Below, piece by piece: positions 6,164-19,429 of a stretch of 57,761 nucleotides of DNA; the stretch's first letter is position 1, and every line of letters starts with the position of its first letter. Source of the DNA: an uncultured bacterium (GTDB taxonomy: Bacteria > Latescibacterota > Latescibacteria > Latescibacterales > Latescibacteraceae); assembly GCA_964456585.1 (NCBI GenBank), contig CAYWBT010000001.1, positions 1 to 57,761 of the forward strand. Direction: 5' to 3'. Below the pieces are notes generated by a model, which had not been told where the DNA came from, searched no databases, and saw nothing but the letters and a program-made list of their open reading frames with translations. The translations under genes and the position numbers were made by a program.

Positions 6164-6250
6164 TCGGGAAAGACATCAGGTACTGCCGGCATCCACAGAA
6201 ACCGTCTTCCCTGTTATGTAGGTTGACAAACGTTTCTTTTAAATCGAGCG

Positions 6251-6500
6251 TTTCGTCTACAATCGGGTGAGGCTCCGGTTTTTCGTTTGGGCATACAATC
6301 CGGGAAATGTGGTGAGACGCTGTTTCTTCCAGGGATACTAAAACATTGGTCGATTCGCAGCCTTCTCGCGAAGTTTATTAAAACCGGAGCGTCAGTATCG
6401 TGGACCAGACGGAAAGATTGCCAGAGACAGTAGATATGTCACGTTTCAGATCGCTGAAGATGCAATAAAAAAAAGCTGTTTGCCGAGATATTGTCTCGGA
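6251..6500 (+). pseudogene. Decayed C-terminal fragment of an IS1380-like (DDE group-1) transposase, copy 1
   Basis: The translation reads RFVYNRVRLRFFVWAYNPGNVVRR..., then after a stop and frameshift KHWSIRSLLAKFIKTGA, then in another frame RYVTFQIAEDAI. This matches the conserved C-terminus of IS1380-type transposases as I recall it (..NQ.RL.L..LAYNL.NFLR.L.LP..IKHWSL.SL..KLIKIGA.VV.H.RY.TFQ.AE.A.). It is broken by stops and frameshifts and has no N-terminal catalytic part. Confidence 0.6.
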
Positions 6501-6941: not shown

Positions 6942-8237
6942 ATGTTCATAATGAACAACGTAGAAATTTTTTCCTCAGGTAAAAATTCTATTGATATACA
7001 AGGAATGGATGATTTTATACAGTTTAGTCGGTACGATCCTTATAAACCCGAATTATTTCTACATGGAATTGAATTATATGAAAATCTAATAACCAAGTAT
7101 GGTACAATTCTATATGCGCGGGGTACTAAAATTACTCCAAAACATTTAGAACGGCTTTTACAGTTAAGGGAATCTAATCCTAACCTGGATTTTCCTTTTA
7201 TATTAAAGAAAAATGCAGAACTTATTCAAAGTTTTCGTAATGAGATTAAAGAGAATCTATTTATTTTAGTTAATCGACAGACAAAGAAAAGCCAGTTTAA
7301 AGCTTTATTGTCTCAAATCAATGTAGATATTGAAAGTTTTATTGATGACATACTTGCAGATGAAAACATCACTCTTGCACTCTATCATACCAGATACACG
7401 TGTAATAATTCTGAGAAAAAAAAATCAACATTATTCTTTGAGCATTCCCTTAATGTGGCAATTTTCTCGTTAGCCATTGCATCATCTTTCGATTACTCGA
7501 AAATTATTGATAAAGACAAATCAAAGCTGGCTGATATTTTCAAAGTAGGTCTTTTTCATAATTACGGTTCGTTAAGCACGATAGATAGTATCTTGAAGGC
7601 ACCTGATGATACTATATTTGATCTTTATTGGGAAGCAAATCGGAAAGGCTACTCCGCTTTTAAACATACACTTTTAAATTATGATATTCTTAATGCATTT
7701 CGATTGTTGGGCAATTACCATAAAGGGCAAAAAGATTTTATCAAGAGTACTGATTGGCCGGCTGTTATCGCAAATATAGTTTTGGTGGCTGATACATTTA
7801 TCACCAGAGAGAATGGTCTTTTCAGCGAGTCTCAATCTATTACAAGTGTGGTTGATTATTTAAACATTAAGGTTACGGAAAATGAGTTTAACCTTTTACC
7901 GGTACTTACTTTGACAAAAGGATTAAACCTCCGTAAAATATTTGACTTCTATAAAGAGTTAAATAATCTTATCAAAGAATGCCCTTATAATTCCGGCGTT
8001 GCCTACCCACTACGCGGTTTCAAAAGTCCGACTCTCTTTGTTTGTAAAAAAGGAGTCAATGTATGTAAGCATCTTGATCAAAGTAAAAAAGCTGTTAATT
8101 TAAGTTACCCTTTAGGAGAATTGAAGCCGGGCAACTATCATATGTGTTTACACTTAACAAATAAATTAATGACGTTTTATAAGAAGCATTATGTTGAAAT
8201 AAAAGAGGTCGTTGCTGTAAATAAAAAACCTCAATAG
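6942..8237 (+). CDS. Orphan degenerate HD-GYP-like domain protein (predicted catalytically inactive) with a Cys-rich C-terminus
   Basis: 431-aa ORF, the only long ORF in a strongly AT-rich segment. The central region aligns by eye to HD-GYP domains, but key residues are replaced: EHSLNVAIFSLAIA is retained as the first His motif, LFHNYG replaces LLHDIGK, NYHKGQKD replaces HHE..DG.GYP, and VLVADTFITRENG replaces VADVFDALTS.R.Y. The N-terminus resembles the regulatory region common in HD-GYP proteins (ILYARGTKITPKHLERL). Confidence 0.5.
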   Translation: MFIMNNVEIFSSGKNSIDIQGMDDFIQFSRYDPYKPELFLHGIELYENLITKYGTILYARGTKITPKHLERLLQLRESNPNLDFPFILKKNAELIQSFRNEIKENLFILVNRQTKKSQFKALLSQINVDIESFIDDILADENITLALYHTRYTCNNSEKKKSTLFFEHSLNVAIFSLAIASSFDYSKIIDKDKSKLADIFKVGLFHNYGSLSTIDSILKAPDDTIFDLYWEANRKGYSAFKHTLLNYDILNAFRLLGNYHKGQKDFIKSTDWPAVIANIVLVADTFITRENGLFSESQSITSVVDYLNIKVTENEFNLLPVLTLTKGLNLRKIFDFYKELNNLIKECPYNSGVAYPLRGFKSPTLFVCKKGVNVCKHLDQSKKAVNLSYPLGELKPGNYHMCLHLTNKLMTFYKKHYVEIKEVVAVNKKPQ

Positions 8238-9150: not shown

Positions 9151-10833
9151 ATGAGAACAACGGCATTATTTCATATTATCCTGACATTCTTTGTCATTCA
9201 CGCATCACCTGCTGATTCCGCATCCTACTGGATCTTTTTCCATGACCGGGGAACGATCGATGTTGATCGTGCCGTTGCCGCAAAAATGGCATCGCCGGGC
9301 GAGCCGAAGTACGCGTGCAGACGGGCCCGCATCATGGGGCGTGAGCGTATTTTCGACGAGCGTGACCTCCCGGTCGATCCGTCCTATGCCGGTACGGTCC
9401 GGGACATCGCCGGCGGGCTCCGGACGGTGACCCGGTACCTGAACGGTGTTTCGGCGGAACTCGATGCGGACGCGCTTGAGCAGGTGCGGAGGCTTCCCTT
9501 TGTACGTGCGGTCATGCCGGTATCCCGGTTTATCCGTTCGCCGGAGCCGGCTGCACGTCCGGCGGTTGAGGAACGAGCGGCACTCTACTCGTACGGGAAC
9601 TCGTTCGATCAACTCAACATGATTAAGGTCATCGACCTGCACAAGATGGGATACTTCGGCAGCGAGATCAGGATCGCAGTGCTCGACAGCGGGTATGATG
9701 GTCTCGAACATACTGCCTTCGACAGCCTCACCGTTACAAACAAGCGGGACTTTGTCGATGGCGACGATGATCCTTCGGGAGACAGCCACGGCACCAAGGT
9801 GCTCTCGGTCATGGCGGCGCTGGACAACGGCAGGATGATCGGTGCTGCGCCCTATGCCACCTATCTGCTCGCCCGCACCGAGATCGTTCAAAATGACCAG
9901 GAACTTCCCATCGAGGAAGACTACTGGGTCAGCGGCATCGAATGGGCCGATAGTCTGGGGACCGACATTGTCTCTACCTCGCTGGGCTATACGACCTTCG
10001 ATGATGGCAGCGGCTACGAGTACGCGGATCTCGACGGGAACACGGCGGTGACCACCATCGCGGCGAACATTGCGGTCGAGCGGGGAATCGTCGTGGTCAC
10101 CTCGGCGGGAAACGAGGGAAGCAAAGACTGGTACTATGTCACCACACCGGCGGACGGTTTCGATGTTATCGCGGTCGGCGGAATCGACCGGAGCGGTGAG
10201 ATCGTTGCCTCGAGTTCACGCGGCCCGACCTATGACGGGAGAATAAAGCCCGATGTGGTCGCTCTCGGCCAGCAGGTTACCGTGGTCAATACTGCTTCTC
10301 GCGACTCCTACACGTCGGGGCAGGGCACATCCTATGCCGCGCCATCTGTCAGCGGAGCTGTCGCCCTCATCCTCGAGGCAAATCCCGCCTGGGGACCGCT
10401 TGAGGTAAAGGAGGCGTTGATCTCGACCGCCTCCCTCGGAAGAGACGGGGCAGATAACACCTACGGGTACGGTATTGTCAACGCGTTTGCGGCATCGGGA
10501 CTCGAAGAGCCTCAGCAGCCGGTGGCGAGGTTTTCCGCCCGCGATCCCTATCCGCAGCCGGTCAGGTTCAGCACCAGCACAAGCATGATCTACTTTCCGG
10601 TTGATCTGCCCACGGCGGGGACGGTTCTGATACACATCTACAACTTCGCCGGCGAGATGGTGAATGTCATCGAAACGAGCTTCCAAAGCGCCGGAAACAA
10701 GCACGACAAGATCGAGGCACCCCACTGGAACGGGACCAATTTCACCGGTGACGATGTCGCTCCGGGTATCTACTACTACACACTGAATTTCGGCAACGGG
10801 GTCAAGAAAGGTAAAATCGCGGTGATACAATGA
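9151..10833 (+). CDS. Secreted subtilisin-like (S8) serine protease with C-terminal T9SS/FlgD-Ig-type sorting domain
   Basis: 560-aa ORF with a signal peptide (MRTTALFHIILTFFVIHASPADS). Catalytic triad motifs are AVLDSGYD, HGTKVLS and GTSYAAPSVSG. The C-terminal ~75 aa (VLIHIYNFAGEMV ... WNGTNFTGDDVAPGIYYYTL ... KGKIAVIQ) match the T9SS C-terminal target / FlgD Ig-like pattern. Confidence 0.88.
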   Translation: MRTTALFHIILTFFVIHASPADSASYWIFFHDRGTIDVDRAVAAKMASPGEPKYACRRARIMGRERIFDERDLPVDPSYAGTVRDIAGGLRTVTRYLNGVSAELDADALEQVRRLPFVRAVMPVSRFIRSPEPAARPAVEERAALYSYGNSFDQLNMIKVIDLHKMGYFGSEIRIAVLDSGYDGLEHTAFDSLTVTNKRDFVDGDDDPSGDSHGTKVLSVMAALDNGRMIGAAPYATYLLARTEIVQNDQELPIEEDYWVSGIEWADSLGTDIVSTSLGYTTFDDGSGYEYADLDGNTAVTTIAANIAVERGIVVVTSAGNEGSKDWYYVTTPADGFDVIAVGGIDRSGEIVASSSRGPTYDGRIKPDVVALGQQVTVVNTASRDSYTSGQGTSYAAPSVSGAVALILEANPAWGPLEVKEALISTASLGRDGADNTYGYGIVNAFAASGLEEPQQPVARFSARDPYPQPVRFSTSTSMIYFPVDLPTAGTVLIHIYNFAGEMVNVIETSFQSAGNKHDKIEAPHWNGTNFTGDDVAPGIYYYTLNFGNGVKKGKIAVIQ

Positions 10834-11504: not shown

Positions 11505-11650
11505 CGGCTCCCATGCAGGCATTTCGTCTCCAATCAGGCGAGGCTCTGGTTGTTCGTTCTGGCATACAATCTGGGAAATTTCCTTAGACGCTTGGTTCTT
11601 CCAAAGTAAATAAAACATTGGTCATTTCGCAGTTTCCTCTGGAGACACCT
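11505..11650 (+). pseudogene. Decayed C-terminal fragment of an IS1380-like transposase, copy 2
   Basis: It translates as LPCRHFVSNQARLWLFVLAYNLGNFLRRLVLPK(stop)IKHWSFRSF. At the nucleotide level it is roughly 75-80 percent identical by eye to 6251-6360, in the same orientation. It is truncated on both sides. Confidence 0.55.
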
Positions 11651-11679: not shown

Positions 11680-12468
11680 TTACATTTTCTTGGATATTTC
11701 ATCATAGTAGTTAACGACACCCTCGGCGAGGTGGGAGGGGATAATCAATATGCCCTCTATCCCAGTGAGCACTACATCGCCAGGAAGTACTGTTACACTA
11801 CCGAGATTAATTGGTGTATTGAGCCCCATGAGCATAACACCTTTCTGGTGTGTGGCAGTCCACCCACGGCATATGCTATTGAATCCTTTAATCTTACGGC
11901 GTATACCGGTCGCATCATGACCACCGCCATTGACGATCAATCCCCTGCATCCTCTTTTGCGCATTTCTAATCCAACGGATTCCCCGGCTACCGGACCATT
12001 TTCAATTTTTCCGAACATATCAACTACGACGACATCCCCATCCACAAGTGTATTCACAATCGGGGAAATATATCCCCCTCCTTTGACAATATTTTTGTAT
12101 CGTTCTTTGTTGACAGCATCCACATCGGGTCGGATCGGCATATAATAGGCGGTGACCGCTCTACCAACCATGATCGGATTATCATGGCTTCGGTACCAGA
12201 TACCACCCTCGAACTGATTTTCATGGCCATGTTCTGAACGGATGTAATCCATGGCATCGTCAATAGGGACTTCTTTCATACGCTCCAAAATCTCATCGGA
12301 CACTTTCGGTCGGCCGTCTGGGAATCGTTTACCTTGCCATAACGAAGTATAAGCAATAAGATCCTCTTTTGTGAAAACACCAACTTGAGCTACGGCATCA
12401 ACAACAAATAATACAGATAAGATTGCAGTTACAACAAAAACCAAGAATTGTTGAGTTTTATACATCAT
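11680..12468 (-). CDS. RraA-family (RraA / HMG-CHA aldolase-like) protein with N-terminal signal peptide
   Basis: 262-aa ORF. Signal peptide MMYKTQQFLVFVVTAILSVLFVVDAVAQ. The core GDVVVVDMFGK...GPVAGESVGLEMRKRGCRGLIVNGGGHD matches the RraA-fold signature (GDV.V.D ... G....... G.. G.V..G..RD), with the terminal RD changed to HD. Confidence 0.65.
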   Translation of the reverse strand: MMYKTQQFLVFVVTAILSVLFVVDAVAQVGVFTKEDLIAYTSLWQGKRFPDGRPKVSDEILERMKEVPIDDAMDYIRSEHGHENQFEGGIWYRSHDNPIMVGRAVTAYYMPIRPDVDAVNKERYKNIVKGGGYISPIVNTLVDGDVVVVDMFGKIENGPVAGESVGLEMRKRGCRGLIVNGGGHDATGIRRKIKGFNSICRGWTATHQKGVMLMGLNTPINLGSVTVLPGDVVLTGIEGILIIPSHLAEGVVNYYDEISKKM

Positions 12469-12544
12469 TATAACGATAACGCTCCTTTCATGTGCTAATT
12501 CGATGTTTCATGTACATCGTCAATAGCTTTGGTAGTTTTAACCG

Positions 12545-12587
12545 ATATTCCCCAGCTATGATAAAAGTCAAGGGACAAAATTTTATA
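12545..12587 (-). promoter_or_regulatory. Conserved promoter-like module upstream of the RraA-like gene
   Basis: On the coding strand it reads TATAAAATTTTGTCCCTTGACTTTTATCATAGCTGGGGAATAT (-35-like TTGACT, -10-like AATAT about 16-17 nt downstream). It is about 80 percent identical to 17032-17074, which lies upstream of the tandem bicupin gene. Confidence 0.4.
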
Positions 12588-12963
12588 TTTCAAATGATAC
12601 TATCACTCAAGTTACTTGCCCGTTTTGTGAAATCAAAAGTTTTTCTTTTCCATTTGCGTCAATGAAGTATATCGAACAGCCAGATTTGCCAGATACGGTA
12701 TCTCCATATACAACCGTTAAATTGCCTTTCCCAAAATCAAGTGGTTTTCGGAGATACTCGCCCGGATTGAACGATTACGATTCAATCCTGCATAATACCA
12801 CTGTTTTTGACTGATTCAAGGGACAGATGTCTCTAACCATGGATATTACAGTACTTATCAAGCATGCGTGCTACAAAATTAAACGATCAGAATACCGAAA
12901 TGTTTGCAAAATTATTCAGTTTATGATATACTGGTTTTTCAAGAAGATTCTTGGAAAATTAAA

Positions 12964-12992
12964 CAGCTTATGATTTTGATATAGGGAATATT
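12964..12992 (+). promoter_or_regulatory. Weaker copy of the same module upstream of the 13038 bicupin gene
   Basis: CAGCTTATGATTTTGATATAGGGAATAT resembles the TGACTTTTATCATAGCTGGGGAATAT core. It has the same orientation relative to its gene and lies about 45 nt upstream of the ATG. Confidence 0.3.
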
Positions 12993-13037
12993 CACTGAAA
13001 CCACAGAAAGTCGGGTGGAAATTCAAGGAGGGGCGGT

Positions 13038-13958
13038 ATGAAGAATTTTCGGCGCATTTTTGGACACATTTTCTTGGGCGTGATCAGTTTGGCCGCTTGT
13101 TTGACTGTCGCGGATGCACAGGAGGCGGATACTGTATACAGACTGGAAACCCGGCCCTATGACCCGGAACTCGATGCAAATATCGACATGTATATATCCA
13201 ACTGGCGCGACGCGACTGCGATCAGGACTCACGGGTGTCTTGTGGAGCGCGAGATATTAACGCATGGCGATCCGAATCATCCCCGGCGAAAAGGGGCGGT
13301 ACTGAAATATGTCAACCGTTTCTCCTACGCGACGCTTTACGCCAGAAACGAAACCACACCGTTCACACCGGAAGGCGAGCAGGAAATATTCTATATCACC
13401 TCGGGAACAGGACAGGTCCGGTCGGAAAAAACAACGGCTGTCCTCTCGACGGGCATTTTCGTCCTTGTTCCAGACGGAGTTGCATTTACCATGGAAAACA
13501 CCGGCGACGAGCCGCTTTCCATGTATGTAATAGTCGAACCCATCACCCGTGAGGACTTCACGCCGCATGACGATATCAAGGTGGTTGACGAGAACAAACT
13601 GCCGATACTGACAACAACCGGCCATTGGTCGATGATTATCAAGCAGGCATATAAACTCACGGACGACCTCTCAATAATCGAATACGTCAACACGATTACA
13701 TTCGATCCCATGACCATCGGGCATCCCCATGCCCATGTTGACGGGTGCGAGGAAGTCTGGACCGAGGTCGAAGGCGAGAGCATTCTTTTTCTGGGCAAGC
13801 AGGTCCGCATGCAGCCGCCGGGAACCGCCTATCTGTGTCCGCCCTATGGGAACTGTACCCACTCGAACATCAACGTTACCGATGCCCCGGTCAAACTGCT
13901 GTACTTCGCCGTGCGAAACGACTGGTCCGAAAGTGACGGGATAAAAAGGGTGAAATAA
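13038..13958 (+). CDS. Secreted bicupin protein (one degenerate plus one metal-binding cupin)
   Basis: 306-aa ORF preceded by an AGGAGG RBS. Signal peptide ends ...LTVADAQE. The second cupin has GHPHAHVDGCEEVW (H.H...E) and PPYGNCTHSNIN (P.G..H...N) metal-ligand motifs. It is a paralog of both halves of 15248..17005. Confidence 0.75.
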   Translation: MKNFRRIFGHIFLGVISLAACLTVADAQEADTVYRLETRPYDPELDANIDMYISNWRDATAIRTHGCLVEREILTHGDPNHPRRKGAVLKYVNRFSYATLYARNETTPFTPEGEQEIFYITSGTGQVRSEKTTAVLSTGIFVLVPDGVAFTMENTGDEPLSMYVIVEPITREDFTPHDDIKVVDENKLPILTTTGHWSMIIKQAYKLTDDLSIIEYVNTITFDPMTIGHPHAHVDGCEEVWTEVEGESILFLGKQVRMQPPGTAYLCPPYGNCTHSNINVTDAPVKLLYFAVRNDWSESDGIKRVK

Positions 13959-14050
13959 GGGATCATTTTTAGAGGCAATACTATGGACAGGTCATTACTG
14001 AATTGCCGCCAGACAACGGTGAAGGGAGATTACCCGTGTATCGTTCCAAA

Positions 14051-14977
14051 ATGAAAAGAAATCCCGTCTTAATATTATTTTTCTTATCGGCTTGTCTTTA
14101 TGGCGGCACCATTTCGGCGCAGGAGACACAATCATTCACGATGAATCCGGTTGGGCCGGAAGCATTCGAGATCATACTTCAATCATACGAATACGACAAA
14201 GACATGCCTCTCAACACGGAAATAACCGAAATCTGCGACTCTGACAATTGTACCCGCAAAAAGTTCGTTTTCGACGGTATGCATGACAGCCGCGTTCCCG
14301 GATACCTGGCAATACCGAAACAGGGGGATGGACCCTTCCCCTGTATAATTCTGCTGCACGGACACACGGGCAACAAGGATGAATGGTGGCGGGACGACAG
14401 TTTTTACAAGGGGGGTCTGGTTACGAAAGCTTTCCTTTCAAATGGTTTTGCTGTGCTGGCCCTCGACGCGGCGTATCATGGAGAACGAATCCCTGGGGAC
14501 GAATCTCTCAAACCCGGGGAGCTCCGTAAACGAGGATGGCACAACAGATCGGTCGATATGATCGTTCAGTCGGTTACGGAATACCGCCGCGCAATCGATT
14601 ATCTGGAAACCCGTCCCGAAATCGATACGACCCGTCTCGGTGTGCATGGATACAGCATGGGCGGAATGATGGCTTTTCTCCTGACGGGGACCGATGGCCG
14701 CATTAAAGTAACCGTATCATGCGTCACGTGGAACTGGGACAATCCCATCGGCAAATATCAGCTTATCGCACCCTATAATTTCGCCCGGGCGATCGGAGAC
14801 CGTCCATTCCTCATGATGATGGGCCAGTCCGATCCACTCCTGCCTGCCGAAGCCGCTAAACGGCTTTACGGGCTTGTGGAGAAACAATCCACCAGTTTTA
14901 TCATGTTCGACTGCGGACATCAGCTTCCGACAGACTATATCGGAAAATCGCTCGGCTGGTTTCAAAAGTACTTATAA
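14051..14977 (+). CDS. Secreted alpha/beta hydrolase (dienelactone hydrolase / acetyl-xylan-esterase-like)
   Basis: The start at 14051 (MKRNPVLILFFLSACLYGG) gives a signal or lipoprotein-type leader. Nucleophile elbow GVHGYSMGG, oxyanion region IILLHGHTG, C-terminal His in FDCGHQLP. Confidence 0.8.
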   Translation: MKRNPVLILFFLSACLYGGTISAQETQSFTMNPVGPEAFEIILQSYEYDKDMPLNTEITEICDSDNCTRKKFVFDGMHDSRVPGYLAIPKQGDGPFPCIILLHGHTGNKDEWWRDDSFYKGGLVTKAFLSNGFAVLALDAAYHGERIPGDESLKPGELRKRGWHNRSVDMIVQSVTEYRRAIDYLETRPEIDTTRLGVHGYSMGGMMAFLLTGTDGRIKVTVSCVTWNWDNPIGKYQLIAPYNFARAIGDRPFLMMMGQSDPLLPAEAAKRLYGLVEKQSTSFIMFDCGHQLPTDYIGKSLGWFQKYL

Positions 14978-15081
14978 AATGGATTGCGTGATACATGTTT
15001 ATTCCATAGATGGTGAGGTCAAATATCGCCGGGTGGGGCGGGCGGCACGGTTCACTCCACCGTATCGTAAATCCATTCGCG

Positions 15082-15231
15082 CTACTGGTCGATGTTTTTG
15101 TTCAGCCTGTATTTTTTGATGTGACTGCGGTAATCGGGGCCGGTCACCTCAATTTTCGAGAGATCGTCCGTTCCCAGACCGGCGTTCGCACACCACTGAA
15201 GGTATTTAAGCTCGCTGTAGTCGATTCCCAT
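15082..15231 (-). pseudogene. C-terminal remnant of a DUF362-type protein
   Basis: A 49-codon ORF, MGIDYSELKYLQWCANAGLGTDDLSKIEVTGPDYRSH..., looks like the conserved C-terminal end of DUF362 proteins (MG.D....yL..A...GLG..dl..IeV.G). The upstream part is missing and the remnant abuts the stop of the 15248..17005 gene. Confidence 0.4.
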
Positions 15232-15247
15232 TTAAACCATAAATCAT

Positions 15248-17005
15248 TCACTCTTTGACAGTAAGGCTCTCTATAACATCCTTACTTGCCTCTATTCGTT
15301 CTTTGTTATAACGGTTACCCATGTATATCATCAGCATCTCTTCGTCAGTTGAATTAATGGTGCAATGGGGAACCTTGAAAGTCGGTTGGACAAGAAATGC
15401 TTCCCCCTCTTCCTGCCAGCGAAGGTGTTTGCCGAAAAAGAGAAGTGATTTACCTTTCAACTGGAACCATATTTCTTCGAGGTCATCCGGGCATGTATGA
15501 GGGTGAGCGATATTAAACGCATCAAACGTTATTACACCCATACTAATGGAATTTGCGAATTTCGGACCGGCGAAAATGCTCCGGTGAATGTGCGCCCAGT
15601 GCCAGCCGCTGCCGACACCGGAATCATGGTAATTCCCAACAATCATTTCGTTCATGGGTTCGAATCCATCATAGATTCCTTCCACCATTATTAGCATTTC
15701 CAGAGCCGTATCATCTGAAGTATTGAAAAACTGATATTCGAGCTGAGCCGGTATGAAAATCCCTGTGCCGTCGCTCAGTTCAGCAGTTTCACCACCGGCT
15801 TCGACCTTGCCTTTTCCTTTTATTACAAAGAAAATTACCTGCTCTTTTTCATGGACAGTCGGCTGCGTTCTGCACTTCGTACTTAAGACGCCGTGATTGT
15901 AAGCTTTGAGAATTTTCAATACTGCACCTGGTCTGGGTGGATTCAAAGGGTCACCGGGGAAAAGAATTTCCCGTTCAATAAATCCTCCATGCCCGATATG
16001 CTGATGCGAATCTTTCCATGAACGTTTATAGAGATCGATGTTGACATCCGTTTCAGGATTACGGCGCCCCCAATCGGAAAACTCCTCAAAAGAAGGGTAC
16101 GTATTCAGGCTTTTGCTTTTTGCGGACTTTTGTTGATCATGTCGGATGCTGAGATGCAGCCACAACATGGGCTTATTTGTATGGTTAATGGAAGAGTGCG
16201 GTACCCTGCCGTTCGGCGGAACGAGAAATGCCTCACCAACTTTTTGATATCGTAGGTGTTTACCGAAAAGGAGTAAACTTTCACCTCTCAACTGATACCA
16301 TATATCCTCTGTTCCTTCCCTGTGAACATGAGGATGGGCAATATCGAATGCATCTATGGAAACAACGGAAAACTCTATGGGATTCGCGAATTTTGCATCT
16401 TGTGCAATATTTCGGATTACATAGGCCCAGTGCCATCCTGTTTTCGGGAAGACGTCATTATAATTTTCAACCTCCATCTCTATCATGGGCATGAATCCAT
16501 CAGGAATGTCCTCGACAACAATGACCATTTCAAGGGAAGTTTCCGAAGTATTGTAGAACTGATACTCGAGCTTAGCCGGAATAAATATACCTGATCCCTC
16601 GAAAATTTCAGCTTTTTTCCCTCCGGCTTCAACCCTTCCGGCTCCTTTTGTCACGAAAAAAAACACTTGTTCCTTTTCATGGACAGTCGGCTGCGTCTTG
16701 CAATTTCCACTCAAAATCCCATGATTGTACTCCTTAATATACTTCAGTACTGCACCTGGTCTGGGTGGATTCAAGGGATTACCGAGAAAAAGAATTTCCC
16801 GTTCAATAAATCCTCCATGCCCGATATGCTGATGCGAATCTTTCCATGAACGTTTATAGAGATCGATGTCGGTATCCGTGTCAGGATATCGCTGGTTATA
16901 CTTTGATAGTTCATAAAATGAAGGCCGTTCCGTCTGATTTTCACCTGAAACCGGACAACTGAAAAAGAAAGCAAAAACCGCCGTAATCAAAAGAAATCTC
17001 TTCAT
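15248..17005 (-). CDS. Secreted tandem double-bicupin protein (two ~276-aa bicupin modules fused)
   Basis: 585-aa ORF with leader MKRFLLITAVFAFFFSCPVSG (lipobox-like FFSC). The two halves are clearly homologous: both contain DIDLYKRSWKDSHQHIGHGGFIEREILF, NPPRPGAVLK, TQPTVHEKEQV, and AHPH...E / P...VPH..IN metal motifs. Confidence 0.82.
   Translation of the reverse strand: MKRFLLITAVFAFFFSCPVSGENQTERPSFYELSKYNQRYPDTDTDIDLYKRSWKDSHQHIGHGGFIEREILFLGNPLNPPRPGAVLKYIKEYNHGILSGNCKTQPTVHEKEQVFFFVTKGAGRVEAGGKKAEIFEGSGIFIPAKLEYQFYNTSETSLEMVIVVEDIPDGFMPMIEMEVENYNDVFPKTGWHWAYVIRNIAQDAKFANPIEFSVVSIDAFDIAHPHVHREGTEDIWYQLRGESLLLFGKHLRYQKVGEAFLVPPNGRVPHSSINHTNKPMLWLHLSIRHDQQKSAKSKSLNTYPSFEEFSDWGRRNPETDVNIDLYKRSWKDSHQHIGHGGFIEREILFPGDPLNPPRPGAVLKILKAYNHGVLSTKCRTQPTVHEKEQVIFFVIKGKGKVEAGGETAELSDGTGIFIPAQLEYQFFNTSDDTALEMLIMVEGIYDGFEPMNEMIVGNYHDSGVGSGWHWAHIHRSIFAGPKFANSISMGVITFDAFNIAHPHTCPDDLEEIWFQLKGKSLLFFGKHLRWQEEGEAFLVQPTFKVPHCTINSTDEEMLMIYMGNRYNKERIEASKDVIESLTVKE
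15921..16040 (-). repeat. Near-identical nucleotide block, copy A of the intragenic duplication
   Basis: 15921-16040 matches 16749-16868 at an offset of 828 nt (276 codons, in frame). The stretch 15961-16040 reads identically to 16789-16868 by eye. Confidence 0.85.
16749..16868 (-). repeat. Near-identical nucleotide block, copy B of the intragenic duplication
   Basis: See copy A. The flanking parts of the two modules are much more diverged. Confidence 0.85.
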
Positions 17006-17647: not shown

Positions 17648-19429
17648 ATGGTACAACTTCAAAATTCTTCCCCGCATACTTTCCACATCCCCGTTATGGG
17701 CACAGGATTCACCATAGACACTCCGCTCCGTGTAGCACGATATGGGATTTCATCAGTCATATCACTCGTTGATGATGTTCTCATCGAACAGATGAGGAAC
17801 TATCACTGCGAAAAAGCTGGAAAATCCTATGAAGAGATTCCCACTTCAGACAGAGATGCCCGGGCACACCGCATTACAGCGTATCTGAATCTCATCGACG
17901 ACCTGGTGAAAAAACAGGTGGAAGAGCTTCGGAATTCACCGTTTGAAGAGGAAAGTGAAATAACCCGATATTACACAATGTTGCCTGAATCCCGTTTGAA
18001 AGACGACTATAATACTATGCTTACGACACCTGATCCTGAGGAAAAAGCTCGCAGGCAGGCCGATCTCAGAAAACAGGTGGCACCCGGCGCTATCGATGTC
18101 AACATCATGACAAAACTGGACTGCAACAGATATAAGAATGGTGTCATGCCGCCGCCGGAGTTTTCCGATGCGAAATCTGCGCTCCGCGGTTATGCCAGAA
18201 GCACGCTCCGTTCCTCAATGGTCTGCTCAGCTGGAATGAACAGAGAGTTTTATAATTATTTCACTTCGTTCGATGATTTTTTCCCTAACGGCGATGGCGC
18301 GCTTCAAAAAAAGATCACTCTGAAAGTGAGTGACTTTCGTTCTGCAGAAATTCAGGGGAAATTCCTGGCTAAACGTGGACTGTGGGTGTCCGAGTTTCGC
18401 ATAGAATCCGGCCTTAACTGTGGCGGGCACGCCTTTGCTACGAAAGGCGTTCTTCTTGGGCAGATATTGAAAGAGTTCAAAGTAAAGAGAGAAGAACTGC
18501 TGGAAAAGCTTCACACTGTGTACAATGATACTCTCACTACCCTCGGTCGCCCTGTATTCGATGAACCATTTGATATTCGCATTACCGTCCAGGGTGGTAT
18601 CGGCACGGCGAGTGAGAATGAAATGTTACTCAAATATTACAACGCTGACAGTACCGGCTGGGCGACACCTTTTCTGCTTGTTCCTGAAGCGGTGAATGTC
18701 GATGAGGCGCATCTTGCAAAGATTTTGGCTGCACGTGATGAAGACATATATTTGAGCGATAGCTCCCCTCTCGGCATACCGTTCTGGAACCTTCGCACTT
18801 CTGCAAGCGAGGAGGCACGCAGGAAACGTATACGCCAAAACAAGCCGGGTAGTGGCTGTGTGAAAGGGTATCTCAAGTTCGATACGGAGATAACCGATTT
18901 ACCTGTCTGCAGGGCATCGGCGATCTATCAGAGGAAAAGGCTTAACCTGCTTGAAAACGAAAGTCTGCCTCCCGAACAGTATCAAGCGAAGAAGGAAGAC
19001 ATTCTCAGTAAATCCTGCATCTGCAACGACCTTGCCGGAGTAGCAACTGTCAGGCTCGGTATTGATCCTGAAGCTACATCCGCAGTGTGCTGCGGCCCAA
19101 ACATCGTGAACTTTACAAAAATAATATCCCTCCAGGAAATGATTGATCATATATACGGGCGCATTTCCCTTCTTTCCAATCCCGAGCGTCCCCACATGTT
19201 CGTCCGTGAGCTGATGATCTATATCGACTATTTCCGGAAAGAGGTTGAGAAAGGCTCACGCGAACTAACAAACCAAACCCAAAAATATCTCACCGAATTC
19301 AAGAAGAATCTTCTCGATTGCATTGAGGATTACCTGAATCTTGGGGAGCAGTTCATCGAGGAGCAGAAGGAACGGATCATCAGTGATCTTACTACGCTCA
19401 AAAAGAAGCTGGAAAGTATATCGCATTAA
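17648..19429 (+). CDS. Conserved-looking hypothetical protein; possible NMO/IMPDH-like FMN TIM-barrel with Cys-rich C-terminal region and coiled-coil tail
   Basis: 593-aa ORF. HIPVMGTGFTIDTPLRVARYGISSVISL, ESGLNCGGHAF and ITVQGGIGT resemble the three signature segments of nitronate-monooxygenase-type barrels (PI.Q.PM ... EAGGH ... AGGI). Cysteine motifs GSGCVKG, PVCRAS, KSCICNDL and AVCCGPN follow. The function call is weak. Confidence 0.45.
   Translation: MVQLQNSSPHTFHIPVMGTGFTIDTPLRVARYGISSVISLVDDVLIEQMRNYHCEKAGKSYEEIPTSDRDARAHRITAYLNLIDDLVKKQVEELRNSPFEEESEITRYYTMLPESRLKDDYNTMLTTPDPEEKARRQADLRKQVAPGAIDVNIMTKLDCNRYKNGVMPPPEFSDAKSALRGYARSTLRSSMVCSAGMNREFYNYFTSFDDFFPNGDGALQKKITLKVSDFRSAEIQGKFLAKRGLWVSEFRIESGLNCGGHAFATKGVLLGQILKEFKVKREELLEKLHTVYNDTLTTLGRPVFDEPFDIRITVQGGIGTASENEMLLKYYNADSTGWATPFLLVPEAVNVDEAHLAKILAARDEDIYLSDSSPLGIPFWNLRTSASEEARRKRIRQNKPGSGCVKGYLKFDTEITDLPVCRASAIYQRKRLNLLENESLPPEQYQAKKEDILSKSCICNDLAGVATVRLGIDPEATSAVCCGPNIVNFTKIISLQEMIDHIYGRISLLSNPERPHMFVRELMIYIDYFRKEVEKGSRELTNQTQKYLTEFKKNLLDCIEDYLNLGEQFIEEQKERIISDLTTLKKKLESISH

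What the first reader, a model, noticed from the sequence alone, without database searches (positions are those of the whole stretch)
11680..17005. Accessory cluster of signal-peptide enzymes: an RraA-like protein, three paralogous bicupin modules and an alpha/beta hydrolase
Four genes in lower-GC DNA all begin with secretion or lipoprotein leaders. They are an RraA/HMG-aldolase-fold protein (normally a cytoplasmic family), a 306-aa bicupin, a serine hydrolase and a 585-aa double bicupin. Each bicupin module has one degenerate cupin and one cupin with an intact H.H...E / P.G..H...N metal site. This layout recalls oxalate decarboxylase/oxidase, quercetinase or other dioxygenase bicupins. An extracytoplasmic set combining an RraA-fold enzyme (oxaloacetate / 4-hydroxy-2-oxoacid chemistry), metal-cupins and an esterase does not match any pathway I can name. 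It may be an uncharacterised periplasmic or surface module for processing small organic acids or plant/aromatic-derived esters.
Basis: partly seen in the sequence, partly recalled or inferred. Interest (0 to 1): 0.66.

Follow-up and report, generated by a model that had tools for sequence, protein, structure and literature searches.

The report
Exported bicupins, RraA-like protein, esterase
Four neighbouring genes in a Latescibacterota genome really do encode exported cupin, RraA-fold and esterase proteins, but they are a chance grouping of three separately expanded, uncharacterised enzyme families, not a conserved pathway.

Summary
All four ORFs exist with the stated domains. Each has an N-terminal signal peptide that recurs across its whole family. 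The three bicupin modules are paralogs. Each has a degenerate N-terminal cupin and a C-terminal cupin with an H-x-H-x4-E...H...N metal site.

The interpretation as one extracytoplasmic module is not supported. The RraA-like gene is absent from 35 other bicupin loci (±10 kb). The bicupin family is absent from 80 other RraA-like loci. The esterase is not linked to either gene elsewhere. The genes lie in three transcription units with different GC content, among housekeeping genes.

- **Bicupins:** a small family, named only from Latescibacterota apart from a few generic or doubtful labels. They occur as tandem arrays of 2-5 copies and as fused doubles, often upstream of two cytoplasmic MtaA/URO-D-like genes or beside glycan-degrading genes. 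No characterised relative was found.
- **RraA-like protein:** a short, divergent member of a large cross-phylum exported clade. The usual neighbour of that clade is a Tat-exported enolase-superfamily dehydratase. The window copy has His in place of the Arg that is essential in HMG/CHA aldolase.
- **Esterase:** an ordinary exported Ser-Asp-His carboxylesterase.

Moderately interesting for the families, not for the cluster.

The parts
11680..12468 (-). Exported RraA-like protein, 262 aa. It is a short form of the clade. The predicted signal peptide is residues 1-27 (nt 12388-12468), cleaved AVA|QVGVF.
   Evidence: PF03737 E 1e-13. AlphaFold2 pLDDT 85.9. Foldseek best matches are 5ir2, 5x15, 3k4i and 3noj. 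Family alignment A2. GC 0.445.
11914..11919 (-). Codons for His184-Asp185. They align with the essential Arg123 and the metal ligand Asp124 of HMG/CHA aldolase.
   Evidence: Pairwise alignments to 3noj and 5x15. This position is Arg in 197 of 206 clade members. His occurs in only 5 other proteins, all short forms. The role of Arg123 is from PMC5065237.
12469..13037 (.). AT-rich 569-nt divergent spacer between the RraA-like gene and the 306-aa bicupin gene (GC 0.362).
   Evidence: The promoter scan was uninformative.
13038..13958 (+). Exported 306-aa bicupin. The predicted signal peptide is residues 1-27 (ADA|QEA). The N-terminal cupin is degenerate and the C-terminal cupin has a metal site.
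   Evidence: AlphaFold2 pLDDT 92.3. Foldseek gives generic bicupins only.
13728..13874 (+). Metal-site motif of the C-terminal cupin, from H231 to N279: H231-x-H233-x4-E238 ... H275-x3-N279.
   Evidence: Invariant or nearly invariant in 80 modules and in alignment A1.
14051..14977 (+). Exported alpha/beta-hydrolase carboxylesterase, 308 aa from the ATG at 14051. An upstream TTG at 14003 is probably not used. Cleavage site ISA|QET. Catalytic triad Ser202, Asp261, His290.
   Evidence: Pfam DLH/AXE1/BD-FAE. Family alignment A5 shows invariant S202, D261 and H290 and signal peptides. PDB profile matches: 9pjb at 4.5e-18 and CE7 acetyl xylan esterases at about 1e-8. It lies 92 nt downstream of the bicupin on the same strand.
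16106..17005 (-). N-terminal bicupin module of the 585-aa fused double bicupin, including the signal peptide (VSG|ENQ).
15248..16105 (-). C-terminal bicupin module of the 585-aa protein. It is 62% identical to the N-terminal module and has Cys in place of His233.
   Evidence: The internal 300-nt DNA repeat 15714-16013 / 16542-16841 is 80% identical. GC 0.439.

Best explanation
The region is a mosaic patch, not a pathway. Three transcription units encode members of three separately expanded families of exported enzymes in a Latescibacterota (WS3) genome. The units are the RraA-like gene, the bicupin plus esterase pair, and the double bicupin.

Shown:
- All four proteins carry Sec-type signal peptides, most likely cut by signal peptidase I at A-x-A|Q. 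They therefore act in the periplasm or outside the cell.
- The bicupins belong to a small family named only from Latescibacterota, apart from a few generic or doubtful labels. One mononuclear metal centre (His231, His233, Glu238, His275) in the C-terminal barrel is conserved. The N-terminal barrel has lost its ligands.
- The esterase has an intact Ser-Asp-His triad.

Inferred:
- The conserved metal centre is the catalytic site. The N-terminal barrel, with the invariant His196-Trp197 linker and Gln115, shapes the substrate pocket.
- The many paralogs (tandem arrays and fusions) diversify substrate specificity, as CAZyme and sulfatase families do.
- The substrates are fragments or decorations of algal or plant acidic and sulfated glycans. 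The chemistry is a non-oxidative, metal-assisted isomerisation, ring-opening or elimination.
- The esterase strips acyl or methyl-ester decorations.
- The RraA-like protein descends from a periplasmic keto-acid lyase clade that normally partners with a Tat-exported acid-sugar dehydratase. This short form has lost the enolate-stabilising Arg (now His), the Asp102 equivalent (now Glu) and the C-terminal extension. It probably no longer acts as a class II pyruvate aldolase. It may bind a related ligand or catalyse different chemistry.
For: Taxonomy and family shape:
- Almost all named bicupin homologs are Latescibacterota. All 35 genome loci either carry a Latescibacterota title or come from untitled MAGs that share assemblies with Latescibacterota-named proteins.
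- Among 1.84 billion representative proteins, only 133 clusters match at E<=1e-30.
- Tandem arrays of 2-5 copies and fused doubles recur.

Export: signal peptides are conserved family-wide.

Metal site: conserved as described.

No conserved linkage among the three families.

Glycan-related neighbours of bicupins:
- GH140-like and Sde0182-like genes beside the 80% homolog.
- A carboxylesterase, a GFO_IDH_MocA gene and a fucosidase in L007.
- CBM9.
- In a census of 108 flanking genes: 3 sulfatases, 4 AP_endonuc_2, 3 GFO_IDH_MocA.

RraA-like clade:
- 3,591 homologs across several phyla.
- In a census of 101 immediate neighbours: enolase superfamily 19, SBF transporter 11, RidA 5, amidohydrolase 5, UxuA 4.
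- The enolase-superfamily neighbours carry twin-arginine signal peptides and resemble galactonate dehydratase.
- The essential Arg position is Arg in 197 of 206 members, but His in the window copy (PMC5065237).
- The 89% homolog sits beside a heparinase II/III-like protein.

Precedents for RraA-fold proteins in glycan catabolism: FlDet in alginate catabolism (PMC8563752) and HLB5 (bioRxiv 10.1101/516542).

Mixed GC content and a housekeeping setting argue for piecemeal assembly.
Against: - No function was tested. The link to glycans rests on variable neighbours in other genomes, and no CAZyme lies beside the genes in this window.
- The most frequent neighbours of the bicupin arrays are two cytoplasmic MtaA/URO-D-like genes and DUF362. 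They are unexplained and could point to different chemistry.
- Signal peptides were judged by heuristics and conservation, not by a trained predictor.
- The closest relatives (80-89% identity) lie on contigs under 5 kb. The 89% RraA-like homolog has only 221 nt on the side where the bicupin would lie, so the same arrangement in sister strains cannot be excluded.
- Bicupin and esterase are co-directional with a 92-nt gap and no predicted terminator. A carboxylesterase of a different family also neighbours bicupins in L007. A loose bicupin-esterase partnership therefore remains possible.
Confidence: 0.55

Rival explanations
1. The four genes are one extracytoplasmic pathway. The esterase releases an organic acid or aromatic ester, the bicupins transform it, and the RraA-fold enzyme cleaves or decarboxylates the resulting 2-oxo acid.
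For: The genes are adjacent and all four are exported. Bicupin and esterase are co-directional with a 92-nt gap. An unrelated carboxylesterase neighbours two bicupins in L007.
Against: There is no conserved co-occurrence in 35 bicupin loci or 80 RraA-like loci. The closest bicupin and esterase homologs have other neighbours. The genes form three transcription units with GC from 0.44 to 0.52. The RraA-like copy lacks the Arg needed for enolate chemistry.
Confidence: 0.12
2. The bicupins are O2-dependent metalloenzymes of the oxalate oxidase/decarboxylase, quercetinase or gentisate dioxygenase type. They would act on small acids or aromatics.
For: Foldseek lists oxalate decarboxylase and quercetinase among the top matches. 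A 3-His-1-Glu site is conserved.
Against: Identity is 10-16% and the TM-score on the query is about 0.6, no better than for ureidoglycine aminohydrolase-type bicupins, BacB or seed globulins. All NCBIfam hits fall far below cut-off, for example gentisate dioxygenase at 14.6 bits against 442. There is one metal site, whereas oxalate decarboxylase and B. subtilis quercetinase have two by my own knowledge. The lineage is inferred to ferment anaerobically (PMC4454575). The neighbours are glycan-related.
Confidence: 0.08
3. The bicupins are not enzymes. They are abundant periplasmic metal-binding or buffering proteins like cyanobacterial MncA, or carbohydrate-binding accessory proteins.
For: MncA is among the structural matches. 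No catalytic function is known.
Against: Besides the ligands, further residues are invariant across 80 modules (Gln115, His196-Trp197, Glu239, Asn279). Arrays of up to five diverged paralogs, about 48-55% identical to the query, look like diversification of specificity.
Confidence: 0.1
4. The window RraA-like protein is still an active periplasmic 2-keto-3-deoxy-acid aldolase or decarboxylase. It would resemble its long-form relatives or the FlDet dehydratase/decarboxylase.
For: The fold and Asp185 are retained. The clade context is acid-sugar dehydratases. FlDet shows that RraA-fold enzymes can do other keto-acid chemistry (PMC8563752).
Against: Arg is replaced by His and the Asp102 equivalent by Glu. 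The C-terminal extension is missing and there is no enolase-superfamily partner in the window. In HMG/CHA aldolase, R123A is inactive and R123K cuts kcat 181-fold (PMC5065237).
Confidence: 0.15

Closest known systems
HMG/CHA aldolase / oxaloacetate decarboxylase (P. putida, PDB 3NOJ) and the RraA family (PF03737)
   Same: Same alpha-beta-beta-alpha fold (Foldseek E 6e-13). The metal-ligand Asp (Asp185) is conserved. The wider exported clade keeps the Arg-Asp pair.
   Different: The window protein is exported. It has His for the essential Arg123 and Glu for Asp102. All NCBIfam scores are far below cut-off: 40 bits against 179-304 for the aldolase models and 24.5 against 136 for RraA.
RraAS2 (S. 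coelicolor, 5X15), PSPTO_3204 (3K4I), HLB5 'cellulase' (5IR2) and FlDet (Flavobacterium KDGR dehydratase/decarboxylase)
   Same: These are the best sequence and structure matches. The profile gives E 9e-20 to 5X15. Foldseek gives 1.6e-16 to 5IR2. HLB5 and FlDet are RraA-fold proteins encoded beside glycan-degrading genes (PMC8563752). The 89% homolog likewise sits beside a heparinase II/III-like gene.
   Different: Identity is 17-22%. No signal peptide was detected in HLB5; the others are cytoplasmic as far as I know, which was not checked. 5X15, 3K4I and HLB5 keep Arg at the aligned position.
Ureidoglycine aminohydrolase-type bicupins (1SFN, 1SEF, 4E2Q, 1RC6)
   Same: These are the best structural matches, with TM-score on the target about 0.77. 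The bicupins are of similar size. By my own knowledge, their active metal site is also in the C-terminal barrel.
   Different: Identity is 12-16%. NCBIfam scores are 28.7 and 42.9 bits against a cut-off of 200. They are cytoplasmic purine-catabolism enzymes, and no allantoin genes lie nearby.
Oxalate decarboxylase OxdC, quercetinase YxaG and MncA
   Same: Bicupin fold and His/Glu metal ligands. MncA is periplasmic.
   Different: Identity is 10-12%. By my own knowledge, both barrels of these proteins are metallated. Their chemistry depends on O2.
KdgF-type single cupins (uronate linearisation in pectin and alginate catabolism; own knowledge)
   Same: A metal-cupin acting on products of glycan lyases. 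This is the kind of role proposed here.
   Different: KdgF is a cytoplasmic single barrel of about 110 aa. No specific sequence match was obtained. This is an analogy only.
CE7 acetyl xylan esterase / cephalosporin C deacetylase and dienelactone hydrolase-like esterases
   Same: Alpha/beta-hydrolase fold, GxSxG nucleophile and Ser-Asp-His triad. Profile E is about 1e-8 to CE7 structures and 4.5e-18 to 9PJB.
   Different: This is a distinct exported family of about 310 aa, found in Latescibacterota, Bacteroidota and Poribacteria. The AXE1 match covers only part of the model.

Membership tests
RraA-like superfamily (PF03737) | Match to the Pfam model above the gathering score, and the RraA fold | tested here: met
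   52 bits against a cut-off of 24.5. AlphaFold2 model with Foldseek matches to RraA-fold structures only.
HMG/CHA aldolase / class II pyruvate aldolase of the RraA fold | Essential Arg123 that stabilises the pyruvate enolate, next to the metal ligand Asp124 | tested here: not met
   His184-Asp185 align with Arg123-Asp124. This position is Arg in 197 of 206 clade members and His only in the short forms. Essentiality is from PMC5065237.
HMG/CHA aldolase equivalog (TIGR02798 / NF006731) | Score above the curated NCBIfam cut-off | tested here: not met
   40.4 bits against 304.5, and 40.3 against 179.
RraA, regulator of RNase E (NF006875) | Score above cut-off, and a cytoplasmic location with RNase E | tested here: not met
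   24.5 bits against 136. A signal peptide is conserved across the clade.
Exported RraA-like clade with a Tat-exported enolase-superfamily partner (defined here) | Signal peptide followed by the conserved mature N-terminus QVGVF.KEDLI.YTP.W.GERFPDGRPKV | tested here: met
   Alignment A2 and 80 metagenome loci.
Exported RraA-like clade with a Tat-exported enolase-superfamily partner (defined here) | Adjacent Tat-signal MR_MLE dehydratase-like gene, and a C-terminal extension of about 50 aa | tested here: not met
   No MR_MLE homolog anywhere in the window. The protein ends at residue 262 without the extension.
Cupin superfamily, bicupin architecture | Two cupin beta-barrels in one chain | tested here: met
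   Two Cupin_2 stretches. AlphaFold2 pLDDT 92.3. Foldseek matches bicupins with probability 1.0.
Cupin superfamily, metal-binding cupins | Motif 1 G(x)5HxH(x)3-4E(x)6G and motif 2 G(x)5PxG(x)2H(x)3N | tested here: met
   The C-terminal barrel has H231-x-H233-x4-E238 and H275-x3-N279, with slightly altered spacing in motif 2. These are conserved in 76-80 of 80 modules. The N-terminal barrel lacks three of the four ligands. Metal binding itself was not tested.
(S)-ureidoglycine aminohydrolase (TIGR03214) | Score above the curated cut-off | tested here: not met
   28.7 and 42.9 bits against 200.
Oxalate decarboxylase / bicupin quercetinase | Metal ligands in both barrels, and specific sequence similarity | tested here: not met
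   The N-terminal barrel is degenerate. PDB sequence search gives E>0.1 for the single proteins. Identity in the structural alignment is 10-12%.
Mannose-6-phosphate isomerase-type cupins (a sugar isomerase with known context) | Score above the Pfam or NCBIfam cut-off | tested here: inconclusive
   PF21621 reaches 38.5 bits against 27 on one barrel of the 585-aa protein. PF01050 (14.9 and 21.5 against 23.6) and TIGR00218 (27.9 against 116) fall below cut-off. This is a generic barrel match only.
Alpha/beta-hydrolase serine esterases (DLH / AXE1-like) | Pfam match above cut-off, and a Ser-Asp-His triad with GxSxG | tested here: met
   DLH 48.9 bits against 21 and AXE1 35.5 against 21. S202 (GYSMGG), D261 and H290 are invariant in 18 homologs.
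Sec/SPI secreted proteins | n-h-c tripartite signal peptide with an A-x-A cleavage site | tested here: inconclusive
   A heuristic and family-wide conservation support it strongly. No trained predictor and no experiment were available.
Bacterial lipoproteins (Sec/SPII) | Conserved lipobox [LVI][ASTVI][GAS]C | tested here: not met
   LAAC, LSAC and FFSC occur in the window copies. The Cys is not conserved in homologs, which instead conserve A-x-A|Q.

The most novel reading that the evidence does not exclude
The roughly 290-aa exported bicupins are a new Latescibacterota-specific family of metal-dependent enzymes. They act on algal or plant glycan fragments, for example by ring-opening, isomerising or eliminating on uronate or sulfated sugar units. 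The family has expanded and fused in the way CAZyme families do. In parallel, the exported RraA-like clade with its Tat-exported enolase-superfamily neighbour defines a previously undescribed periplasmic dehydratase-plus-lyase route for sugar acids, and the window copy is a degenerate offshoot of it.
Probability: 0.25. Interest if true: 0.7.

Novelty: new variant of a known kind. Interest (0 to 1): 0.4.

Why it matters
Latescibacterota are uncultured, widespread degraders of algal detritus, and much of their exported proteome has no assigned function.

- **Bicupin family:** it is lineage-restricted, heavily duplicated and exported, and it has one conserved metal site. That makes it a concrete candidate for missing steps in the breakdown of acidic or sulfated polysaccharides.
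- **Exported RraA-like clade:** it has thousands of members and is often paired with a Tat-exported acid-sugar dehydratase-like protein. This suggests that keto-acid chemistry usually placed in the cytoplasm may also occur in the periplasm of several phyla.

The four-gene cluster itself has little value as a unit. It should not be annotated as a pathway.

Tried and rejected
- **PDB sequence searches.** Single bicupins gave only E>0.1. The family profile gave generic single-cupin hits, such as TM1287 and DddK, on the degenerate barrel. No functional lead came from this.
- **Foldseek.** It returned every kind of bicupin with similar scores. No specific assignment was possible.
- **Lipoprotein reading.** Rejected, because the Cys is not conserved in homologs.
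- **Oxalate decarboxylase, quercetinase, gentisate dioxygenase, ureidoglycine aminohydrolase and mannose-6-phosphate isomerase.** All rejected as memberships, because scores fall far below the curated cut-offs.
- **Source record.** Looking up the window's own NCBI record through its proteins returned only short identical ENA, JGI and Logan contigs. The organism is therefore inferred from homologs.
- **Promoter and terminator scan.** Uninformative. Terminator-like sites were fewer than in shuffled sequence.
- **Literature.** Searches for Latescibacteria plus cupin, RraA plus signal peptide, RraA plus enolase superfamily plus periplasm, and bicupin plus glycan found no description of these families. 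The Latescibacteria genome paper mentions neither cupins nor RraA.
- **Distant bicupin representatives.** They carry only generic names. One comes from a possibly mis-binned Caulobacteraceae MAG.
- **DMSP-lyase idea.** It was prompted by the DddK hit and the MtaA-like neighbours. It was not pursued, because the hit lies on the ligand-less barrel and no corrinoid protein was seen among the neighbours.

Full report
**What is in the sequence**

- 11680-12468(-) encodes a 262-aa RraA-like protein (PF03737, E 1e-13).
- 13038-13958(+) encodes a 306-aa protein with two Cupin_2 stretches.
- 14003-14977(+) encodes an alpha/beta hydrolase (DLH, AXE1, BD-FAE and others).
- 15248-17005(-) encodes a 585-aa protein with three Cupin_2 stretches passing threshold; four cupin barrels follow from its two bicupin modules.

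The two halves of the 585-aa protein are 62% identical. The 306-aa protein is 34-35% identical to each half. The internal duplication is also visible in the DNA as a 300-nt repeat at 80% identity.

AlphaFold2 gives confident models: pLDDT 92.3 for the bicupin and 85.9 for the RraA-like protein. Foldseek confirms a bicupin fold and an RraA fold respectively.

**Export signals**

No trained signal-peptide predictor was available, so I used a heuristic together with evolutionary evidence.
- All four N-termini have a basic n-region, a strongly hydrophobic core and an A-x-A-type site. These are AVA|Q, ADA|Q, ISA|Q and VSG|E.
- The neighbouring HIT, M23 and 593-aa proteins do not have these features.
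- The same layout occurs in 42/43 bicupin homologs, 25/26 RraA-like homologs and 17/18 esterase homologs, and in all fused double bicupins examined.
- In every family the leader is variable. Conservation starts right after the predicted cleavage site.
- The lipobox-like Cys residues of the window copies are not conserved, so signal peptidase I cleavage is the better reading.
- Homolog alignment places the esterase start at the ATG at 14051. NCBI's 278-aa annotation starts at an internal Met and omits the leader.

**Metal sites**

I examined 80 bicupin modules drawn from the loci collected.
- The C-terminal barrel keeps H231 (80/80), H233 (76/80), E238 (78/80), H275 (77/80) and N279 (78/80). 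This is the classical cupin ligand set.
- Gln115, His196 and Trp197 are also invariant.
- In the N-terminal barrel the two His of motif 1 and the His of motif 2 are replaced.
- There is one exception. The C-terminal module of the 585-aa protein has Cys at position 233, the only such case in 80 modules.

**Is it a module?**

The evidence says no.
- An HMM of the RraA-like clade hit none of 35 independent bicupin loci with ±10 kb flanks. It hit only the window and an identical ENA contig.
- In 80 RraA-like loci from metagenomes, the bicupin HMM gave only three weak generic-cupin hits, with E from 1e-7 to 1e-10.
- The esterase had no homolog in either set.
- The 80%-identical bicupin homolog follows Sde0182-like and GH140-like genes and has no esterase downstream.
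- The 89%-identical RraA-like homolog lies beside a 1027-aa heparinase II/III-like protein.
- The 61%-identical esterase homolog has no bicupin or RraA-like gene in the 10 kb upstream or the 0.85 kb downstream that were recovered.

Within the window the genes form three transcription units with different composition.
- The RraA-like gene has GC 0.445 and the double bicupin 0.439.
- The 306-aa bicupin has 0.524 and the esterase 0.507.
- The window mean is 0.506.

The surroundings are housekeeping genes: FtsK, proC, a HIT protein, an M23 peptidase, the ATP synthase operon, DnaG and RtcB.

One caveat applies. The nearest relatives lie on contigs under 5 kb, so the same arrangement in sister strains cannot be excluded.

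**The bicupin family**

- 363 homologs were found. Almost all named ones come from Candidatus Latescibacterota; a few carry generic or other labels.
- All 35 genome loci either carry a Latescibacterota title or come from untitled MAGs that share assemblies with Latescibacterota-named proteins.
- A profile search of 1.84 billion representative proteins gave only 133 clusters at E<=1e-30. The family is small and lineage-restricted.
- It occurs as tandem arrays of 2-5 paralogs and as fused doubles of about 560-600 aa. The 585-aa protein has full-length counterparts with the same mature N-terminus.
- A Pfam census of 108 flanking genes gave URO-D 16, DUF362 8, AP_endonuc_2 4, sulfatase 3 and GFO_IDH_MocA 3.
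- Individual loci add CBM9, a carboxylesterase, a fucosidase and a GH140-like gene.
- The URO-D-like genes come in two conserved types, 419 aa and 390 aa. They are cytoplasmic and distantly MtaA-like. This link is unexplained.
- No characterised relative was found. PDB sequence searches were generic. Foldseek gave ureidoglycine aminohydrolase-type bicupins, quercetinase, oxalate decarboxylase, BacB, MncA and seed globulins, all at 10-16% identity. All curated NCBIfam hits were far below cut-off.

**The RraA-like protein**

- It belongs to a large clade with 3,591 homologs. Members come from Latescibacterota, KSB1, Verrucomicrobiota, Sumerlaeota and others.
- Almost all members carry a signal peptide followed by a conserved mature N-terminus.
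- Among 101 immediate neighbours in 80 loci, the commonest are enolase-superfamily proteins (19), SBF transporters (11), RidA (5), amidohydrolases (5) and UxuA (4).
- The enolase-superfamily neighbours carry twin-arginine signal peptides. They resemble galactonate and mannonate dehydratases.
- From this I infer a periplasmic acid-sugar dehydratase plus keto-acid lyase pair.

The window copy departs from that pattern.
- It is a short form without the C-terminal extension of about 50 aa.
- It has no enolase partner in the window.
- It has His184 where 197 of 206 clade members have Arg. That Arg aligns with Arg123 of HMG/CHA aldolase. In that enzyme R123A is inactive and R123K lowers kcat 181-fold (PMC5065237).
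- The Asp102 equivalent is Glu.

In three other Latescibacterota genomes a short form sits near a second RraA-like gene. Only one of these second genes was inspected: it is a long form that keeps Arg.

RraA-fold proteins linked to glycan catabolism have precedents. FlDet is a dehydratase/decarboxylase in alginate catabolism, encoded next to an alginate lyase (PMC8563752). HLB5 is a second example (bioRxiv 10.1101/516542).

**The esterase**

- It belongs to an exported family of about 310 aa, found in Latescibacterota, Bacteroidota and Poribacteria.
- Ser202, Asp261 and His290 are invariant.
- Its nearest solved structures are an MHETase-like hydrolase and CE7 acetyl xylan esterases.

**Most likely mechanism**

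Shown:
- The proteins are exported.
- Each bicupin module has one conserved mononuclear metal site.
- The esterase triad is intact.
- The RraA-like copy has lost the aldolase Arg.
- There is no conserved linkage among the three families.

Inferred:
- The bicupins are metal-dependent enzymes. Their paralogs diversify specificity toward glycan-derived substrates, probably through non-oxidative chemistry, because the lineage is inferred to ferment anaerobically (PMC4454575).
- The esterase removes ester decorations.
- The RraA-like protein is a degenerate or re-purposed offshoot of a periplasmic keto-acid lyase.

**Verdict**

The cluster is a mosaic of known superfamilies in an unusual, exported guise. 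Interest is moderate (0.4) and lies in the families rather than in the four-gene cluster.

Noticed in passing
window 6248-6367 and 11519-11639: A noncoding direct repeat of about 120 nt, with two copies about 80% identical. Each copy lies just left of a low-GC stretch: the 6.0-9.15 kb region (GC 0.37, holding a 431-aa ORF with no family hit) and the low-GC RraA-like gene. There is no Rfam match and no coding signal. The consensus fold is weak, with no covariation from two copies. It may be an island boundary, a small RNA or a terminator module.
   Followed up: partly
L004 4570-7036; L005 14235-18143; L010, L012, L016, L017, L020, L023, L025, L039: Latescibacterota bicupin arrays are followed on the same strand by a cytoplasmic MtaA/URO-D-like gene of about 419 aa in nine loci. 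A second type of about 390 aa is also present in at least four of them. This is the most conserved neighbour of the family and it is unexplained.
   Followed up: partly
L051 1389-3512 and 18 further loci among L055-L130: A Sec-signal RraA-like gene lies next to a Tat-signal enolase-superfamily gene that resembles galactonate or mannonate dehydratase. SBF transporter, RidA, amidohydrolase or UxuA genes are often nearby. The pair occurs across several phyla and suggests a periplasmic route for sugar acids.
   Followed up: partly
window 12385-12390, 13116-13121, 14117-14122; alignments A1, A2, A5: The predicted cleavage sites of the RraA-like protein, the 306-aa bicupin, the esterase and most of their Latescibacterota homologs expose an N-terminal Gln (A-x-A|Q). 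This resembles the Bacteroidetes Q-rule, which its authors report as not applying to the whole FCB group (PMC5837995). The S8 protease in the window does not follow it.
   Followed up: no
window 15248-16105 (C-terminal module of the 585-aa protein): This is the only one of 80 bicupin modules with Cys in place of the ligand His233. It also has Gln for the conserved Pro268. The metal site may be altered or decaying.
   Followed up: partly
L131 6208-8783; L132 8001-9800; JGI 3300072015 contig: Short-form RraA-like genes lacking Arg (His or Leu at the Arg position) lie adjacent to or near a second RraA-like gene in three Latescibacterota genomes. The one partner inspected, in L132, is a long form that keeps Arg. 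This hints at hetero-oligomers of active and inactive subunits.
   Followed up: partly
window 6942-8237 and 17648-19429: Two sizeable ORFs (431 aa, GC 0.32; 593 aa) have no Pfam or NCBIfam family. The 593-aa ORF is divergent from the double bicupin and has no signal peptide.
   Followed up: no
window 9151-10833: An S8 subtilase with a signal peptide and weak, sub-threshold hits to the type IX secretion C-terminal sorting domain (CHU_C, FlgD_ig). This is at most a hint of type IX secretion. Por_Secre_tail domains, found on proteins in related Latescibacterota loci rather than in this window, are more consistent with an FCB-superphylum origin.
   Followed up: no
window 14003-14977: The public annotation of the esterase (278 aa) starts at an internal Met and omits the signal peptide. 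Homologs support a 308-aa precursor starting at 14051.
   Followed up: yes
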